Positions 25,783 to 52,005 of a DNA stretch of 64,000 bases are shown here, one piece after another. Positions within the stretch are counted from its first letter, which is position 1. Each line of letters starts with the position of its first letter. Source of the DNA: Candidatus Hermodarchaeota archaeon (GTDB lineage Archaea; Asgardarchaeota; Lokiarchaeia; Sigyniarchaeales; SOKP01); NCBI GenBank assembly GCA_048885525.1, contig JBHLLP010000002.1, positions 32,001 through 96,000 on the forward strand, given 5' to 3'. The notes beneath the pieces are model-generated. The model was not told where the DNA came from. It was given only the letters and a program-made list of their open reading frames with translations, and did no database searches. The position numbers and the translations under genes were made by a program.

Positions 25783-27621
25783 TTATTTAAATACCCCATG
25801 GGTTAATTTTAAAGATTCTATTTCATTCAGTAAATTACTTTTTAAATTGTCAATTTTGTCGAAATTTTCGTTCTCAATTGTACGATTAATTCTTAAAATG
25901 TCACGTATCACTTTTAGTTCTTTAATTTCTTCTATAAAAAATCCTTTTTCTAACAGTTCTTCGCCTTCTTTATATAATAATAGAATAATTTTAATCATTC
26001 CTAAAAGTTTTTTCGCGTTTGTAAAGTTATCAATATTATCGAAAGCATTTTGGATTAAAAACCCATCTTTGATTAACTTAGCAATAAATATAATTAATCG
26101 TTGATCTTCTGGGAGATTTTCCTCTCCGATAAGTTGTACAATATATCTTAACTCATTATCTTTTGAGAGAATCTCATTTACTTGTTGACGACAATCATGC
26201 CAATCTATATCAATTTCTGTCCAATCTATATCTCTTTCATACCACCATTCGGAAATATAATCTGGATAATTAGAATAAGAATTTAGCCAATTAATTGCAG
26301 GATAGTGCTTTGAATATGCTAACGCAGCATCTAAAGCCCAGATACCTTGTACAAAATTTTTAGTCGTAGCTGTAACTGGTTCACTAAAATCTCCTGCTGG
26401 AGGTGAAATAGAACCTATAATAGTTAAAGATCCTACTTTTTCTTCTTTAGTTTCTTTTTTTCCAATTAATTTAACAGCTCCAGCCCGTTCATAAAAACTT
26501 GAAAGTTTTGAAGGTAAATATGCAGGATAACCTTCTTCTGCAGGCATTTCTTCTAATAATCCAGAGATTTCTCTTAAGGATTCTGCCCATCTTGATGTGC
26601 TATCTGCAAGAACTGCAACGTCATACCCCATATCTCGATAGTATTCAGCAATCGTTACACCAGAGAAGATGCTAGCTTCACGTGCTGAAACTGGCATGTT
26701 TGAAGTGTTAGCAATCAAAATTATTCGATCTAATAGAGGTTGACCAGATTTAGGATCAATTAATTCAGAAAATTGTTTTAAAACATCGGCTATCTCGTTA
26801 CCACGTTCGCCACAACCTACAAATACAATTACATCGGCATCACACCATTTTGCTAATGATTGTTGAATGACTGTTTTACCGGTCCCGAAACCTCCAGGAA
26901 CTCCAATTGTACCACCTTTAGTAATGGGAAATAATAAATCTATTACTCTTATCCCTGTGATTAAAGGTTCATTAGGTAATTTTCTCTCTTTAAAGGGACG
27001 TGAAATAGTTATTGGCCATTTTTGTAGCATTGAAAAACTTTTTTCTGTATCCCCAATTTGCAATTTATAGATTTTATCAATAATTGTAAAGTCTCCTTCA
27101 TCTGCTAGGAAAGTTAATTTTCCTGAAGTATTAGGAGGTATCATTATTTTGTGTTGTATAATTGGAGTTTCTTGGACTGTACCAATAATATCACCACCAC
27201 TTACATATTTATCAATATTATCATTAGGTAAAAAATGCCATTTCTTTGAACGTGAAAGGGAGGGGATTTCTAATCCTCTATGTAATCCTCCACTTTTAAA
27301 AAAATCGAAAGCTTCTTGTAAAGGTCTTTGAATTCCATCAAAGAAATTCCTCAGTAATCCAGGTGCTAATTCCATAGAAAGAGGTTCTCTCAAATTAACA
27401 ACTTCTTCATTGATTCGTAAATTATTAGTATCCTCAAAGCATTGACAAACTACATGATCAGAATATATTTGAATAACTTCTCCTAAAATGTTATGTTTAG
27501 ATATTTTAACAAGATCATGAATTCGAATCTGGGTTTCTAGTCCTTTAACTTTAATCAATGAGCCAATTACAGCTGAGATATACCCAACTTTAAAATTGGT
27601 TTCAGAATTGGATTTGTTCAT
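25783..27621 (-). CDS. atpA: A/V-type ATPase subunit A (canonical copy)
   Basis: GGFGTGKT, GCGERGNE, ADSTSRWAE, SPPAGDFSEPV. Confidence 0.95.
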   Translation of the reverse strand: MNKSNSETNFKVGYISAVIGSLIKVKGLETQIRIHDLVKISKHNILGEVIQIYSDHVVCQCFEDTNNLRINEEVVNLREPLSMELAPGLLRNFFDGIQRPLQEAFDFFKSGGLHRGLEIPSLSRSKKWHFLPNDNIDKYVSGGDIIGTVQETPIIQHKIMIPPNTSGKLTFLADEGDFTIIDKIYKLQIGDTEKSFSMLQKWPITISRPFKERKLPNEPLITGIRVIDLLFPITKGGTIGVPGGFGTGKTVIQQSLAKWCDADVIVFVGCGERGNEIADVLKQFSELIDPKSGQPLLDRIILIANTSNMPVSAREASIFSGVTIAEYYRDMGYDVAVLADSTSRWAESLREISGLLEEMPAEEGYPAYLPSKLSSFYERAGAVKLIGKKETKEEKVGSLTIIGSISPPAGDFSEPVTATTKNFVQGIWALDAALAYSKHYPAINWLNSYSNYPDYISEWWYERDIDWTEIDIDWHDCRQQVNEILSKDNELRYIVQLIGEENLPEDQRLIIFIAKLIKDGFLIQNAFDNIDNFTNAKKLLGMIKIILLLYKEGEELLEKGFFIEEIKELKVIRDILRINRTIENENFDKIDNLKSNLLNEIESLKLTHGVFK

Positions 27622-44545: not shown

Positions 44546-45460
44546 ATGATTGAAAATAAAAATAATAAATCGGCTGAGTCAAATAATAAAGAAAAGTGTT
44601 GTAGAAATCCAAATATTAATATTAGAAATGGGGCAAAGGTATGTTTAAATTGTGGTATGGTAATAGGCGTTGTATTACTACAGAAAGAAAGAAGAGCTTT
44701 CACTTTAGATGAAAGAAGAAAAAGAAAGCGAACTGAAAAAAGGTGGAGAGCTTATGGTCCCAGGACCATTCTTTCAAATGAAATTATAGACAGTAAAGGT
44801 AAAATCATTGATGCTAAAAAAAGATTAAAAATTAAACGTTTATCAAAAATACAAAGATCTTTAACTACAGGAATAGAGAGAAATTTATGGGAAGCTGAGC
44901 CAAAAATGTCATATCTGGTTTCTAAATTAAATATTCCTGATTATGTTTTTAAAACGGCCTGGACAATTTATAAATCTGCTGCGGAAAAGAAATTAACAAT
45001 GGGTAGATCGATTAAAGGATTTATAGCTGCTTCTTTATATGTTGCAATACGAACTTATGAAATTCCTCGGTTATTAGAAGAAATAACTGACGCTCTCTTT
45101 ATCTCTCGAAGAACTGTCATTCGTTCTTTAGGAATATTATTTAGAGAAATATTACCAGATCTTAATCTTAAATATAAACCAATTACACCAGAACAATTAG
45201 TATTTAAATTTGGAAATGAGTTAAAAATACCTATCAAAATACAAAAAAAAGCAGTTAATTTACTAAGATATTCGTCTAATAGAGGGCTTTCTACTAATGG
45301 AAAAGATCCAAAAGGATTTGCAGCTTCAGCTATTTATATGGCGGCAAAATCTACTGATCATCGTAAAACTCAGAGTCAAGTTTCAGATACAGCAAAAATC
45401 ACAGAAGTAACTTTAAGAACTAGAATAAAAGAAATTAAAGAATTATCCCGTTTAAATTAA
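44546..45460 (+). CDS. tfb: Transcription initiation factor IIB (TFB) paralog
   Basis: CC...VCLNCG zinc ribbon, ERRAF, two cyclin repeats (GRSI..AASLY; GKDP.G.AASAIY; TEVTLR.R). Confidence 0.92.
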   Translation: MIENKNNKSAESNNKEKCCRNPNINIRNGAKVCLNCGMVIGVVLLQKERRAFTLDERRKRKRTEKRWRAYGPRTILSNEIIDSKGKIIDAKKRLKIKRLSKIQRSLTTGIERNLWEAEPKMSYLVSKLNIPDYVFKTAWTIYKSAAEKKLTMGRSIKGFIAASLYVAIRTYEIPRLLEEITDALFISRRTVIRSLGILFREILPDLNLKYKPITPEQLVFKFGNELKIPIKIQKKAVNLLRYSSNRGLSTNGKDPKGFAASAIYMAAKSTDHRKTQSQVSDTAKITEVTLRTRIKEIKELSRLN

Positions 45461-45470
45461 GAGTGTATTC

Positions 45471-47525
45471 ATGAATTCGAAAGGGTTATTTTTAGTAAGT
45501 CCTAACATAGGACATCCCAAAATATTGAATATTGATAGTAAATTAACTAAAAAAGACTTTAAAACAGATTTATTAATCATATCTAATATAAAGAATCCAA
45601 AAAAAGTAAAAGAATTCTTAACAGATAATATTAAATTAATACCTATTTTTGACTATAAGTGGAAATTAGAACAACTTCTAAAAAAAAGAGGTTTAAGAAA
45701 AAAAATCAAACGATTATGGAGAAAAATAAAAGCTTTTTTCTCATTTAGAAAAAAGGAAAAACATTTTGAAAGTTCAATAGAAGAATTAGACAAGTTTGGA
45801 GAAAAACAAAAAAGAACAGTAAAAATAAAAAAGAAGGATATAAAGAAAATAAAGCCTCGCGCTTTTAGGGGAATCCCAATAATTACTAAAATCATAAATA
45901 TAATATCAACAACCTCAATAAAGATCAATAACTCAAAATATATTGATGATCAATATTGTAGACCTCAGAATTATTTAAGAAAATTAGACGTTTTTGATAA
46001 TTTGGATTATTTCTTTAAAATTACTTTAGAATTTAAAATAACTGATGAGATTTTAAAATTTTTGTCAACCAAAAAGTTCGTAATGTTTGACATTTTAGTT
46101 GAAGATATAAATTTGGACAAAGAAATAAATTATCACGCTATTGTAATTTCAAAAAACGATTGGACAAATATCAATATCATACAAGCAACTGATTTACATA
46201 TAGCTAAAAGAAATGATGAAATATTTGATAAAATAAATAAAATGTATCGAAATCTTAGAAGTAAAAATATTAAAAAAATAAATCAAATAGAAACTAATCA
46301 ACTAAACTCAAAAGATAAAGGTGATATTAGAAAATCTCTTTTTAAAATTGATCTCTCATTTAAAAAGAGACTGATTAATCCAAACAATCTTTTTAGAAAA
46401 TTTATTGAGATTGTAAATAAGAAAGTAACCAAAAATGAAATTGACTTTATAATTATTACAGGAGATATTGTAGATTTTACTAATATTAGTAAAACACCAG
46501 AAAATAAAAATAAAATTTTTAGGTATAAAAAGAGTAATTGGAAAGTCTTCAAAATAATTGTCTTGAATATAAATCAGACTAATACTAAGGGTGTTAAAAG
46601 ATCAACGGAAATATTATGTCCAATCTTTACCATTCCCGGCAATCATGATTATCGCCCTTGGCAGTATGATTTAAATTGGGGAGGAATTTATAAAAAAATA
46701 GGGCTTAAAAAAATTGAAGCTCAAGCATTAAAAGATGAATATTCAGCTTCTCCAATCAAAGCTATTTTAAAAAGTGAAAATGCATTAAAAGGATATTTGT
46801 CCGAAATAAATGCTTCACTAAATTACTATTTAAAATTAGAAAATTCTGTGTTTATTTTTTTAAATACTGGGGCGGATTCCTATAAAAAAATAACAGATTT
46901 TATATCAGGAAGCCCTTCTCTAACAGGTCTTACTCACAGGCAAATAGAATTTTTAAATAATATTATTGAATATAAGCACAATAAAAAATCTCAAATTTTT
47001 CTTTGTTTGCATGCACCTCCTATAAATACAAGAGAGAAACGAGGTATATTAAGCCGAATAAAGAAAAAATTTAAAAAAATGATGAGAATACATTTAGATC
47101 AGTTCAAAGAATCTAAATTTGCAAGTCTAAAAAGGAAAAGAGAAAAAGCCAGAATTGATAATAAATTTAATATAACATATGGAACGATTTCTTCTAATTG
47201 GGAGAAATTGATTGATTTTTGTATCAAATATTGTATTCTAACTATCTCAGGTCATACACACATGTTAAATGAATATAGATTGAAAAAATCTTTACAAAAT
47301 AGCTCTAATGATAAGGAAGTGAAAAATTCATCTTTTTCAGTATTTTATGATGATTATTCTGAGATTTGTAAAAACATAAAGGATATTCAAAAATATAGTC
47401 CCTTTATAGTTCAAACTCCTGCGCTAGGATTAAAATCCTTTAAAAGACTTAAGAAAGCAGGAGCATATCGAGAAATAATAATAAAAAATGGAAAATTAGA
47501 TTCATTTCAAGTTAAATATCTATAA
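45471..47525 (+). CDS. Large calcineurin-like metallophosphoesterase
   Basis: TDLH, TGDIVD, PGNHD, LHAPP, SGHTH; very Lys-rich insertions. Confidence 0.85.
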   Translation: MNSKGLFLVSPNIGHPKILNIDSKLTKKDFKTDLLIISNIKNPKKVKEFLTDNIKLIPIFDYKWKLEQLLKKRGLRKKIKRLWRKIKAFFSFRKKEKHFESSIEELDKFGEKQKRTVKIKKKDIKKIKPRAFRGIPIITKIINIISTTSIKINNSKYIDDQYCRPQNYLRKLDVFDNLDYFFKITLEFKITDEILKFLSTKKFVMFDILVEDINLDKEINYHAIVISKNDWTNINIIQATDLHIAKRNDEIFDKINKMYRNLRSKNIKKINQIETNQLNSKDKGDIRKSLFKIDLSFKKRLINPNNLFRKFIEIVNKKVTKNEIDFIIITGDIVDFTNISKTPENKNKIFRYKKSNWKVFKIIVLNINQTNTKGVKRSTEILCPIFTIPGNHDYRPWQYDLNWGGIYKKIGLKKIEAQALKDEYSASPIKAILKSENALKGYLSEINASLNYYLKLENSVFIFLNTGADSYKKITDFISGSPSLTGLTHRQIEFLNNIIEYKHNKKSQIFLCLHAPPINTREKRGILSRIKKKFKKMMRIHLDQFKESKFASLKRKREKARIDNKFNITYGTISSNWEKLIDFCIKYCILTISGHTHMLNEYRLKKSLQNSSNDKEVKNSSFSVFYDDYSEICKNIKDIQKYSPFIVQTPALGLKSFKRLKKAGAYREIIIKNGKLDSFQVKYL

Positions 47526-47552
47526 ATAGTTTATTCATGACATAAAAAAGCA

Positions 47553-47888
47553 GTGGAGGTGAAAACTAAAATAAAAGATGAGAAAATATGTCAGATATGT
47601 AGCTTTCCAAAAGAATTATGTATCTGTGAAAAATTAGGAGCCGAGGATCAACAAATAGAAATTTATAATGAAAAAAGAAGATGGGGGAAAAAAGTGACCA
47701 TTGCTAAGTTTAATGGTAACTTTAATATTGATTTAGATAATCTTATTACTAGAGCAAAGAAAAAGTGCGCTTCTGGTGGAACATATGGAGACAATTATAT
47801 TGAAGTACAAGGAGATCATCGTTTTAGATTAAAAAAATTTCTAATTAATGAAGGTTTCCCTAAAGAAAAAATTTTAATTGAAGATTAA
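47553..47888 (+). CDS. sui1: Translation initiation factor aIF1 (SUI1)
   Basis: CQICSFPKELCICE zinc knuckle, RRWGKKVT, GGT, IEVQGDHR; start GTG 47553/47559 or ATA 47571. Confidence 0.92.
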   Translation: MEVKTKIKDEKICQICSFPKELCICEKLGAEDQQIEIYNEKRRWGKKVTIAKFNGNFNIDLDNLITRAKKKCASGGTYGDNYIEVQGDHRFRLKKFLINEGFPKEKILIED

Positions 47889-50023: not shown

Positions 50024-51043
50024 TCAATTTTTATCTTTTTCTAATATTGATTCATAAACCTTAATGTAATCATCAACCATTCTTTCAACAGAAAACTTTT
50101 TTTCAACCCATCTTCGACATTCTGAGCGATCAATAAGATCAATTTTTTTTAATGCATTAATTGCTTCTTCATGAGAATTGACTAAAAAGCCAGTTTTTCC
50201 ATTTACAATTACTTCAGCCATACTACCTTTGTTAAAAGATATTACGGGTGTTCCACAAGCCATTGCCTCTACAACTGACAATCCAAATGCCTCAGGAATA
50301 TTAATAGGGTTTAATAATGCATAAGCTCCTCCTAATAACTCATCTCTTTTCTTTGGATCAGCAATACCAACATACTTGACTAATTCATCATCAAGGAAAG
50401 GTTCAATATTTCTTTTAAAATAATCCTTATCTTGAATAATTCCTGCTAAGATTAATTTCATTTCAACTTTAAGAGCCATTTCAATAGCTTCTTTAGCACC
50501 TTTATCATGATGTAAACGACCAAAAAATATTAGATAATCTTTTGGATTAGATTTAAAAGTAAATTGGTTCAAATCTATACCATGATATACCGTAGCTATA
50601 TAATTTAATTCTGGAATTCTAGCAGCATTACTTATAGAAACGTAATAACTCTGATTATTGTATTTCTTATACACAGGTAAAATTTTGGGAGATGAGATAC
50701 CATGAATTGTTGTTACCACAGGAGTGGATGTCATTTTTATATATGTTAATGGTAAAAAATCAAAATGGTTATGAATAATATCAAAATCATCTCCTCTTTC
50801 GAACAATTCAGATATATGTAAACATTCCCATACTTTTGGAATTATTTGATTATCTTCTTCATAACCATGTTCACAAACACCAACAAGATTTGCTTTAGTA
50901 ATGGAATTTTTTGTAGCAAATAAAGTGACATCAATCCCTTTCTTTATAAGTCCTTCTGTCAATAAAGAGACTATATATTCCCATGGTCCATAAGAGCGAG
51001 GAGGAGTACGCCATGCGATTGGTGAGAGTATTGCTACGTGTAT
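50024..51043 (-). CDS. GT4 glycosyltransferase, probable ATA start
   Basis: EAFGLSVVEAMACGTP; family N-terminus HVAILSPIAWRTPPRSYGPWE lies upstream of the track TTG and begins at ATA 51043. Confidence 0.9.
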   Translation of the reverse strand: MHVAILSPIAWRTPPRSYGPWEYIVSLLTEGLIKKGIDVTLFATKNSITKANLVGVCEHGYEEDNQIIPKVWECLHISELFERGDDFDIIHNHFDFLPLTYIKMTSTPVVTTIHGISSPKILPVYKKYNNQSYYVSISNAARIPELNYIATVYHGIDLNQFTFKSNPKDYLIFFGRLHHDKGAKEAIEMALKVEMKLILAGIIQDKDYFKRNIEPFLDDELVKYVGIADPKKRDELLGGAYALLNPINIPEAFGLSVVEAMACGTPVISFNKGSMAEVIVNGKTGFLVNSHEEAINALKKIDLIDRSECRRWVEKKFSVERMVDDYIKVYESILEKDKN

Positions 51044-51045
51044 TA

Positions 51046-52005
51046 TTAGTCACCTAATACAAAATTTTGCTTTTCAAGCCATTTAAGAATTTCTGAAAGA
51101 CTTGCGGTTGCCAAAGCTATAGAACTATCAGCACATCCATAATAAAGTAGGATATCATCATTTTCTTGAATCCAGCCACATGGAAAAACAACTTTATCAA
51201 CATCACCAAAGATTTCATACGATTCTTTTGGAGAAAAGACCCACTCATCAGATCGTGCGATTACTTTGCAGGGATCTTTTAGATCTAAAAGTCCAAGTCC
51301 TAAGCGATAAATGATACCACTAGCGGTTGTTTTAACTCCATGGTAAAGTATTAACCATCCAGAATCAGTTTTCAATGGAGGGGGAGATAAACCAATTTTA
51401 TTTGCATCCCACCAACTTCCATCTCTAGCGGGAATAAGAAGTTTGTGATCACCCCAATGTTTAAGATCCGGTGAAAAAGCAATCCATATATGGGCACCAG
51501 TTCCTGACATTTTAGCAACGGGTCTATGAAGTATTGCCCATCGATTATTAAACTGAATTGGAAATATAGCAGCATCCTTGTTCTCTGGTGGCATAATAAC
51601 CCCATAACGATTAAAATGCTTGAAATCTTTGGTACATGCTAATGAAACTAAAGGTCCAGCTTTAGAATAGGCAGTATAGATAATAACCCATAAATTTTTT
51701 TCTTCCAAGAATGTAATTCTAGGATCTTCAATACCCCATATTTCTTCTGGATAAGTCTTAGGATTTGGTGTCATAGTAGGTTGGGTATCAATATGCCAAT
51801 TACTTATTCCATCTTTACTACGAGCTAAAGTAAAATGGGAAATTCCTCTTTTATCTTCTACTCTCATTAGAAGTATAATTTCATTATGAAATTTAATTGC
51901 ACCTGCATTGAAAACTGTATTCGCAAGATAAGGCAAATCTTTTATTGAAATAATTGGATTGGCTGGATGCCGCTTAAAAAGCTCATTAAAATTTGATTTT
52001 ACGAT
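51046..52005 (-). CDS. GH130-like (DUF377) glycosidase/phosphorylase, probable ATC start
   Basis: VFNAGA, GIEDPRIT, NKDAAIFP, LHRP, LYHGV, VVFPCG; LFKRHPANPI lies upstream of the track TTG. Confidence 0.88.
   Translation of the reverse strand: MVKSNFNELFKRHPANPIISIKDLPYLANTVFNAGAIKFHNEIILLMRVEDKRGISHFTLARSKDGISNWHIDTQPTMTPNPKTYPEEIWGIEDPRITFLEEKNLWVIIYTAYSKAGPLVSLACTKDFKHFNRYGVIMPPENKDAAIFPIQFNNRWAILHRPVAKMSGTGAHIWIAFSPDLKHWGDHKLLIPARDGSWWDANKIGLSPPPLKTDSGWLILYHGVKTTASGIIYRLGLGLLDLKDPCKVIARSDEWVFSPKESYEIFGDVDKVVFPCGWIQENDDILLYYGCADSSIALATASLSEILKWLEKQNFVLGD

What the first reader, a model, noticed from the sequence alone, without database searches (positions are those of the whole stretch)
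47553..47888. aIF1/SUI1 may itself start at AUA: possible start-codon-fidelity feedback loop
Seen: GGAGGTGA (47555-47562), a particularly long SD match, overlaps both in-frame GTGs (47553, 47559). The next start-like in-frame codon is ATA 47571, 8 nt downstream, giving M-KDEKICQIC, close to the usual short aIF1 N-terminus before the zinc knuckle. There is no in-frame ATG anywhere in the gene. Known: eIF1/aIF1 and bacterial IF3 police start-codon choice, and infC (AUU start) and eIF1 (poor context) autoregulate in this way. Inference: an archaeal equivalent, in which aIF1 level could tune all ATH-start genes.
Basis: partly seen in the sequence, partly recalled or inferred. Interest (0 to 1): 0.8.

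Follow-up and report, generated by a model that had tools for sequence, protein, structure and literature searches.

The report
Second aIF1 gene, probable AUA start
This Loki-type Asgard archaeon carries a second, intact copy of aIF1, the factor that checks start codons, and like the main copy it most probably begins at a weak AUA/AUU codon behind a ribosome-binding site, which suggests (but does not prove) that the factor limits its own synthesis as bacterial IF3 and eukaryotic eIF1 do.

Summary
ORF 47553-47888 is a SUI1/aIF1 gene with no in-frame ATG. A perfect 8-nt Shine-Dalgarno, GGAGGTGA (47555-47562), overlaps both in-frame GTGs and lies 8 nt before ATA 47571.

The gene is a second, sporadically kept aIF1 paralog under purifying selection (dN/dS about 0.1).

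The main aIF1 of the genome, on another contig, has no ATG/GTG/TTG before its zinc knuckle. Its layout is GGTTGTGA (TGA is an in-frame stop), 9 nt, then ATT.
- An ATH codon sits at this site in 83 of 83 main-type genes of the family.
- 77 of the 83 have no canonical alternative.
- All eight intact paralog copies keep GAGGTGA, 8 nt, then ATH. The 8-versus-9-nt spacer shows the motif is non-coding.

Controls argue for selection specific to aIF1.
- The uS14 start flips freely among ATG, GTG, TTG and ATH in the same family.
- aIF1A always has a canonical start.
- Outgroup aIF1 genes (mostly Bathyarchaeia) start at ATG.

I put the AUA start of the window copy at about 0.7; GTG 47553 remains a rival. 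The feedback loop is inference, at about 0.45. No expression data could be obtained.

The scan had already reported the main copy's ATT start and the genome-wide ATH starts on other DNA.

The parts
47555..47562 (+). Shine-Dalgarno element GGAGGTGA, complementary to the 16S 3' end over 8 of 8 bases.
   Evidence: The core GAGGTGA is kept in all 8 intact paralog copies, always exactly 8 nt before ATH. GAG is kept even though GAA is the preferred Glu codon (51582 against 13351).
47571..47573 (+). ATA, the proposed start codon (read as Met by the initiator tRNA).
   Evidence: It is homologous to the ATT/ATC start of the main aIF1. Aligned SD spacing is 8, within the 4-9 range of ATG genes in this genome. 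It places the first Cys at residue 7; unambiguous Asgard aIF1 starts place it at 5-9.
47553..47555 (+). In-frame GTG, the rival (default-annotation) start.
   Evidence: No SD lies upstream of it. G078 and the G007 pseudogene have ATG at this site. Its last G is also the first base of the 8-nt SD.
47559..47561 (+). In-frame GTG inside the SD, the second rival start.
   Evidence: It is in frame only because the spacer is 8 nt. In main copies with a 9-nt spacer the same GTGA gives an in-frame TGA stop.
47571..47888 (+). Coding sequence of aIF1-2 as proposed: 105 codons plus TAA.
   Evidence: Pfam and NCBIfam matches. dN/dS is 0.07-0.11 against other paralog copies.
47589..47627 (+). N-terminal zinc knuckle C-x2-C-x6-C-x-C (CQICSFPKELCIC).
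   Evidence: translation. These Cys positions are invariant in the alignment of 17 Asgard aIF1 proteins.
47646..47861 (+). SUI1 domain, residues 32-103 of the 111-codon frame.
45471..47525 (+). Upstream same-strand gene, a calcineurin-like metallophosphoesterase. Its stop lies 29 nt before the SD (27 nt before GTG 47553).
   Evidence: The same junction is kept in G078. The short gap suggests an internal cistron that needs an SD.
44546..45460 (+). TFB (TFIIB-repeat) paralog, the first gene of the same-strand cluster.
   Evidence: The gap to the next gene is 10 nt.

Best explanation
Shown: 47553-47888 encodes an intact second aIF1 (aIF1-2) under purifying selection, in an Asgard (Promethearchaeota, Loki-type) genome that also has the family-wide main aIF1 on another contig.

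Strongly inferred: translation starts at AUA 47571. The 30S subunit is placed there by pairing of GGAGGUGA with the 16S 3' end, and the normal CAU initiator tRNA reads AUA with one mismatch. The two in-frame GUGs are by-products of the SD and its 8-nt spacer.

Inferred: aIF1 destabilises initiation complexes on near-cognate codons, so a high aIF1 level lowers initiation on its own AUA/AUU mRNAs. [quoted passage not shown] The same stringency would also set the output of the few per cent of genes in this genome that start at ATH.
For: 1. The main aIF1 has no other possible start.
- C32:32284-32598 reads TTG TGA TAA GAC AGC ATT AAA GAT, with no ATG/GTG/TTG that gives 40 aa or more.
- In family f1, 83 of 83 main-type genes have ATH at this site (76 ATT, 4 ATA, 3 ATC).
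- 77 of the 83 have no canonical codon between the in-frame stop and the zinc knuckle.
- The GTGA-to-ATH spacer is 9 nt in 74 genes and 8 nt in 2.

2. The paralog keeps the same architecture.
- All 8 intact copies have GAGGTGA, 8 nt, then ATH AAA GAK. The three codons in between vary freely, and conservation begins at the ATH.
- A 1-nt difference in spacer between homologous layouts cannot lie inside a coding region.

3. ATH starts are real in this genome.
- In frames closed just upstream and lacking canonical starts, ATT, ATA and ATC peak sharply at SD spacing 6 (11, 5 and 2 cases).
- Six control codons give 0-1 cases at that spacing.

4. Selection is specific to aIF1.
- In the same family the uS14 start is ATH in 9, ATG in 9, TTG in 6 and GTG in 4 of 28 genomes.
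- aIF1A has a canonical start in 70 of 70 Asgard genes, and ATG in 10 of 11 in f1.
- Outgroup aIF1 genes start at ATG, reading MAEIC, and 0 of 80 lack a canonical start.
- Other Asgard families also use ATA (f6, f7, f14, f20) or CTG (f9, f12) for aIF1.

5. Mechanistic basis.
- S. solfataricus aIF1 lets the 30S complex bind AUG mRNA but not AUU mRNA (Hasenohrl 2009, as cited in PMC4705826).
- A normal initiator tRNA (CAU anticodon, A1:U72) is present.

6. The gene follows another gene by 27 nt on the same strand. An internal cistron is the setting where archaea rely on an SD.
Against: - The window copy, unlike the main copy, has two in-frame GTGs. G078 and the G007 pseudogene have ATG at the site of 47553, so an upstream canonical start may operate in this subclade.
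- TATAAATA at 47521-47528 sits at the archaeal promoter distance for a transcript beginning near 47551-47553, which would make GUG 47553 5'-terminal. In a genome with 71% A+T this match is weak evidence.
- SD spacing of 8 (9 in the main copy) is longer than the sharp optimum of 6 seen for other ATH starts.
- ATH starts are a genome-wide habit here, so an ATH start alone does not prove regulation.
- No transcript, ribosome or peptide data exist.
- Related genomes are not independent, so the counts overstate the evidence.
Confidence: 0.5

Rival explanations
1. AUA 47571 is the start, but there is no dedicated feedback. The lineage simply tolerates ATH starts behind strong SDs, and aIF1 happens to carry one. 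The weak codon may only keep a low-abundance factor low.
For: - ATH starts occur in about 30 strict cases genome-wide, and probably more.
- uS14 also uses ATA/ATT in this genus.
- Two further genes in the window fit the pattern.
- aIF1A genes of many Asgard families use TTG or GTG, so non-AUG starts on factor genes are not unique to aIF1.
Against: - aIF1 keeps ATH in 83 of 83 genes across 12 genera, and in the paralog. In the same genomes uS14 switches among ATG, GTG, TTG and ATH. A single T-to-G change would give ATG, yet it is never seen.
- Near-cognate aIF1 starts recur in distant Asgard families, but not in the TACK-dominated outgroup.
Confidence: 0.27
2. The window copy starts at GUG 47553 (or 47559), as a gene finder would call it. 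GGAGGTGA then merely encodes Glu-Val-Lys or acts only as a downstream element.
For: - GTG is a legitimate archaeal start, and both GTGs are in frame.
- ATG stands at the 47553 site in G078 and in the G007 pseudogene.
- The TATA-like box at 47521-47528 is about 27 nt upstream.
Against: - No SD precedes either GTG.
- The five other intact paralog copies have AAA, AGT or AGG at the 47553 site.
- GAG and the A after GTG are kept at the nucleotide level in all intact copies, although dS is about 0.7-1.2.
- The same motif is closed by an in-frame TGA in 74 main copies.
- The first Cys would fall at residue 11-13, against 5-9 in unambiguous cases.
- From my own knowledge, GUG is a poor start on leaderless mRNAs.
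Confidence: 0.17
3. Dual initiation: both GUG 47553 and AUA 47571 are used, which gives two isoforms that differ by six residues.
For: Both signals are present. An ATG or GTG at 47553 is kept within the three-member subclade.
Against: The six extra residues are not conserved. Nothing suggests a function for them.
Confidence: 0.06

Closest known systems
Bacterial infC (IF3): AUU start with translational autorepression (Butler et al. 1987, cited in PMC4705826)
   Same: A factor that rejects non-AUG starts is itself encoded behind a conserved AUU/AUH start preceded by an SD. The predicted logic is identical: more factor means less initiation on its own mRNA.
   Different: IF3 and aIF1 are unrelated folds. 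No experiment exists for the archaeal case. Two paralogs are involved here, and dozens of other genes in the genome also start at ATH.
Eukaryotic eIF1 autoregulation through a poor AUG context (Ivanov et al. 2010, cited in PMC6237735)
   Same: It is the orthologous protein family (SUI1) and has the same role in start-site stringency. [quoted passage not shown]
   Different: Eukaryotes weaken the context of an AUG in a scanning system. Here the codon itself is near-cognate, and the ribosome is placed by an SD.
Archaeal aIF1 of S. solfataricus, P. abyssi and M. jannaschii (biochemically and structurally studied)
   Same: The domain, the zinc knuckle, the basic loop and the GG / QGDHR motifs are shared.
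   Different: Outgroup aIF1 genes sampled here (80 loci, mostly Bathyarchaeia and other TACK) start at ATG and read MAEIC. No autoregulation of aIF1 was found in the paper library.

Membership tests
SUI1 / aIF1 (PF01253) | SUI1 domain match above the curated cut-off | tested here: met
   PF01253 scores 62 bits against a cut-off of 25.5. NF002096 scores 109.3 bits against a cut-off of 98.
SUI1 / aIF1 (PF01253) | Archaeal N-terminal zinc knuckle CxxC...CxC, plus the conserved R, GG and QGD positions | tested here: met
   CQIC...CIC, KRRWGK, CASGGT and VQGDHR are all present. These positions are invariant in alignment A1.
SUI1 / aIF1 (PF01253) | A gene maintained by selection, not a decaying copy | tested here: met
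   dN/dS is 0.07-0.11 between paralog copies. The G007 copy, by contrast, is a pseudogene with two TAA codons.
SUI1 / aIF1 (PF01253) | Binds the 30S subunit near the P site and rejects near-cognate starts | not testable with these tools
   Known for S. solfataricus and P. abyssi aIF1 only (PMC4705826 and PMC6237735).
Fidelity-factor autoregulation through a weak own start (infC / eIF1 type) | The factor's own start is near-cognate or otherwise weak | tested here: inconclusive
   Met for the main copy: ATT is the only option. Likely but not exclusive for the window copy, which has in-frame GTGs.
Fidelity-factor autoregulation through a weak own start (infC / eIF1 type) | The weak start is conserved where other genes' starts drift | tested here: met
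   aIF1 keeps ATH in 83 of 83 genes. uS14 has ATH 9, ATG 9, TTG 6 and GTG 4. aIF1A has canonical starts in 70 of 70.
Fidelity-factor autoregulation through a weak own start (infC / eIF1 type) | Expression falls as factor level rises, and this is lost when the start is changed to AUG | not testable with these tools
   This needs reporters or toeprinting.
SD-led initiation site | Complementarity to the organism's own 16S 3' end, at a spacing used by its other genes | tested here: met
   8 of 8 bases match GGATCACCTCCT. Aligned spacing is 8; ATG genes span 4-9 with a peak at 6.

The most novel reading that the evidence does not exclude
Asgard archaea of this family run a start-codon-stringency circuit. 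aIF1 is made from a conserved AUU start and, in some genomes, also from a second paralog with a perfect SD and an AUA/AUU start.

Under this reading aIF1 represses its own synthesis and jointly sets the output of a regulon of ATH-start genes, which includes ribosomal proteins.

The second copy sits behind a TFB paralog and a phosphoesterase. It would be a conditionally expressed variant that shifts stringency.

This would put the logic of the eIF1 feedback before eukaryogenesis.
Probability: 0.3. Interest if true: 0.85.

Novelty: new variant of a known kind. Interest (0 to 1): 0.72.

Why it matters
Feedback through a weak own start is the textbook control of start-codon fidelity in bacteria (infC) and eukaryotes (eIF1). 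Nothing comparable has been described for archaea.

Finding the same design in Asgard archaea would matter in three ways:
- it makes the question testable of whether the eIF1 loop predates eukaryotes or arose by convergence;
- it matters for annotation, because gene finders miss or misplace aIF1 and other ATH-start genes in these genomes;
- the second paralog offers a natural comparison, with a perfect SD plus AUA against a split SD plus AUU.

Tried and rejected
- **RNA structure.** The fold of 47526-47610 is no more stable than shuffles (z 0.49). There is no sign of a regulatory hairpin.
- **uORF coupling in the main copy.** GTG ATA AGA .. TAA overlaps the ATT. I rejected this because the ATC variants of genus g20 lose that stop while keeping the layout.
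- **Stop read-through from an upstream start.** Rejected: many main copies have two or three consecutive in-frame stops, such as TGA TAA or TGA TAA TAG.
- **A special initiator tRNA for ATH.** None was seen, only a normal CAU initiator. ARAGORN found only 34 tRNAs, so this check is incomplete.
- **Codon-usage score.** My first attempt to list start-less genes this way was swamped by antisense shadow frames. I replaced it with the SD-spacing test.
- **Pfam check of two ATH-start genes in the window.** It gave only modest support. The GT4 domain begins before the TTG; GH130 is uninformative.
- Two coordinate slips were corrected and rerun.

Full report
**What is in the sequence**

The frame opens at 47541 after TGA 47538-47540. 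It reads CAT AAA AAA GCA GTG GAG GTG AAA ACT AAA ATA AAA GAT GAG AAA ATA TGT and ends at TAA 47886-47888. It contains no ATG.

GGAGGTGA occupies 47555-47562 and matches the genome's own 16S 3' end (GGATCACCTCCT) over eight bases. ATA 47571 follows after 8 nt.

The motif is rare: 2 in the window against 0.56 expected, and 50 in the 3.58-Mb genome of 29.4% G+C.

The product is SUI1/aIF1. It has the archaeal zinc knuckle CQIC...CIC.

**The gene is a paralog**

The genome has two SUI1 genes. The one on contig C32 is the family-wide ortholog. The window copy is about 62% identical to it.

Copies of the window type were found in only 8 of 131 family genomes by DNA search. A ninth, in G007, is a pseudogene with two TAA codons and a lost Cys.

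Seven second copies form their own clade in a quick tree (SH-aLRT 96). They evolve under purifying selection: dN/dS is 0.07-0.11 with dS about 0.7-1.2.

Their neighbourhoods differ among genomes:
- a metallophosphoesterase gene, as in the window and in G078;
- the 3' end or a remnant of a DEAD-box helicase gene;
- a YkgJ-like gene.

In five of nine cases, counting the G007 pseudogene, an upstream same-strand gene stops 14-30 nt before the SD. In the window the cluster is a TFB paralog, then the phosphoesterase, then aIF1-2, with gaps of 10 and 27 nt.

**The main copy settles what the ATH is**

The C32 gene reads ...AAAGGTTGTGATAA GAC AGC ATT AAA GAT GAT GAA ATT TGT. No ATG, GTG or TTG gives even 40 residues.

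I examined 83 main-type genes of family f1 with a closed frame, from 12 genera. The results:
- the codon at this site is ATT in 76, ATA in 4 and ATC in 3;
- 77 have no canonical codon between the in-frame stop and the knuckle;
- the spacer between GTGA and ATH is 9 nt in 74 and 8 nt in 2.

With 9 nt the TGA of the motif is an in-frame stop. With 8 nt the GTG falls in frame.

All eight intact paralog copies have GAGGTGA, exactly 8 nt, then ATH AAA GAK. The three intervening codons vary freely (K-T-K, N-I-K, I-I-E, K-R-F and others), and conservation begins at the ATH.

A homologous layout that differs by one base in its spacer cannot be coding. So the G-rich motif is a ribosome-binding site, and the in-frame GTG of the paralog is a by-product.

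GAG before the GTG is kept in every copy, although GAA is the preferred Glu codon. This again points to constraint on the nucleotides.

**ATH starts are real in this genome**

About 10-15% of genes have a recognisable SD. The distance from the A of GGTGA to ATG peaks at 6 and spans 4-9.

I then took frames that are closed within five codons upstream and lack canonical starts for 15 codons. In these, ATT, ATA and ATC show a sharp peak at spacing 6 (11, 5 and 2 cases). Six A+T-rich control codons show 0-1.

The two aIF1 genes have spacings of 9 and 8. That is inside the ATG range but longer than the optimum.

A normal initiator tRNA (CAU anticodon, A1:U72) is present.

**Is aIF1 special?** Three controls bear on this.

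- **uS14 in the same family.** Its start at [start]-CCA-CAA-GG is ATH in 9, ATG in 9, TTG in 6 and GTG in 4 of 28 genomes. The result shows that ATH is interchangeable with canonical starts, and that such starts are labile. aIF1 never changes.
- **aIF1A across the phylum.** It has a canonical start in 70 of 70 genes and ATG in 10 of 11 in f1. Many other families use a conserved TTG or GTG.
- **aIF1 outside Asgard.** In 80 outgroup genomes, mostly Bathyarchaeia and other TACK, aIF1 starts at ATG and reads MAEIC. None lacks a canonical start.

Within Asgard, near-cognate aIF1 starts recur:
- ATA in f2.g5, f6, f7, f14 and f20, and in one f19 genome;
- CTG in f9 and in two f12 genomes.

Related genomes are not independent, so these counts overstate the evidence. 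The contrast still holds genus by genus.

**Mechanism**

Published work shows that S. solfataricus aIF1 lets the 30S complex accept AUG mRNA but not AUU mRNA (as cited in PMC4705826). P. abyssi aIF1 proofreads initiation complexes (PMC6237735).

A factor with this activity that is translated from AUU/AUA should repress its own synthesis. That is the logic of infC and eIF1.

I found no report of this for archaea in the paper library. It remains an inference.

**Remaining doubt for the window copy**

- G078 and the G007 pseudogene have ATG where the window has GTG 47553.
- TATAAATA at 47521-47528 lies at promoter distance for a transcript starting about 47551. A 5'-terminal GUG start therefore cannot be excluded.
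- Against it, the other five intact copies have AAA, AGT or AGG at that site.
- The G of ATG or GTG at that site also extends the SD from 7 to 8 bases.
- W-rich boxes are common at 71% A+T.
- The gene looks like an internal cistron.

My odds are: AUA about 0.7, GUG 47553 or 47559 about 0.2, and both about 0.1.

**Earlier notes of this scan**

After reaching the above, I found that other agents had already reported the ATT start of the main copy and the genome-wide ATH habit on other DNA. I re-derived both independently.

New in this report:
- the paralog status of the window gene;
- the 8-versus-9-nt spacer argument;
- the uS14, aIF1A and outgroup controls.

Noticed in passing
L218-L287 (aIF1A loci of Asgard genomes): aIF1A genes of many Asgard families start at a conserved TTG (TTG CCT AAA AAA in f8, f12, f13, f14, f23 and f27) or at GTG (f22). 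In the window's own family they start at ATG. Initiation-factor genes may be generally enriched for non-AUG starts in this phylum.
   Followed up: partly
window 44546-47888: This is a same-strand cluster of a TFB (TFIIB-repeat) paralog, a 684-aa calcineurin-like phosphoesterase and aIF1-2, with gaps of 10 and 27 nt. It may be an operon that pairs an alternative transcription factor with an alternative translation factor.
   Followed up: partly
L210 (G109) and L211 (G118), upstream of the aIF1-2 copy: In other genomes aIF1-2 follows the 3' end of a DEAD-box helicase gene. In G109 only a short fused remnant of that helicase is left, between the phosphoesterase gene and aIF1-2. The ancestral order may have been phosphoesterase, helicase, aIF1-2.
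   Followed up: no
L004 1441-1850 (G007): The G007 copy of aIF1-2 is a pseudogene. It has two in-frame TAA codons at conserved Lys/Arg positions and has lost the first knuckle Cys.
   Followed up: yes
window 51041-51054 and 52003-52019 (minus strand): Two more probable ATH starts lie in the window. The GT4 glycosyltransferase has GGTGA, 6 nt, then ATA 51043. The GH130 gene has AGGTG, 8 nt, then ATC 52005. The first canonical TTG would cut into the GT4 N-terminal domain.
   Followed up: partly
L171, L173 (f9); L188, L189 (f12): Some Asgard aIF1 genes appear to start at CTG behind an SD. Examples are GGAAGGTG, 7 nt, then CTG, and AGGAG, 10 nt, then CTG with an in-frame TGA one codon upstream.
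   Followed up: no
G000 contigs C5:21124-21678 and C6:106725-106994: HdrA-like and MvhD-like frames have no start codon, and a tRNA-Sec is present. These are probably the downstream parts of selenoprotein genes read through TGA.
   Followed up: no
window 26399-26406: This is the only other GGAGGTGA in the window. Its flanks read like coding sequence. I did not examine it further.
   Followed up: no
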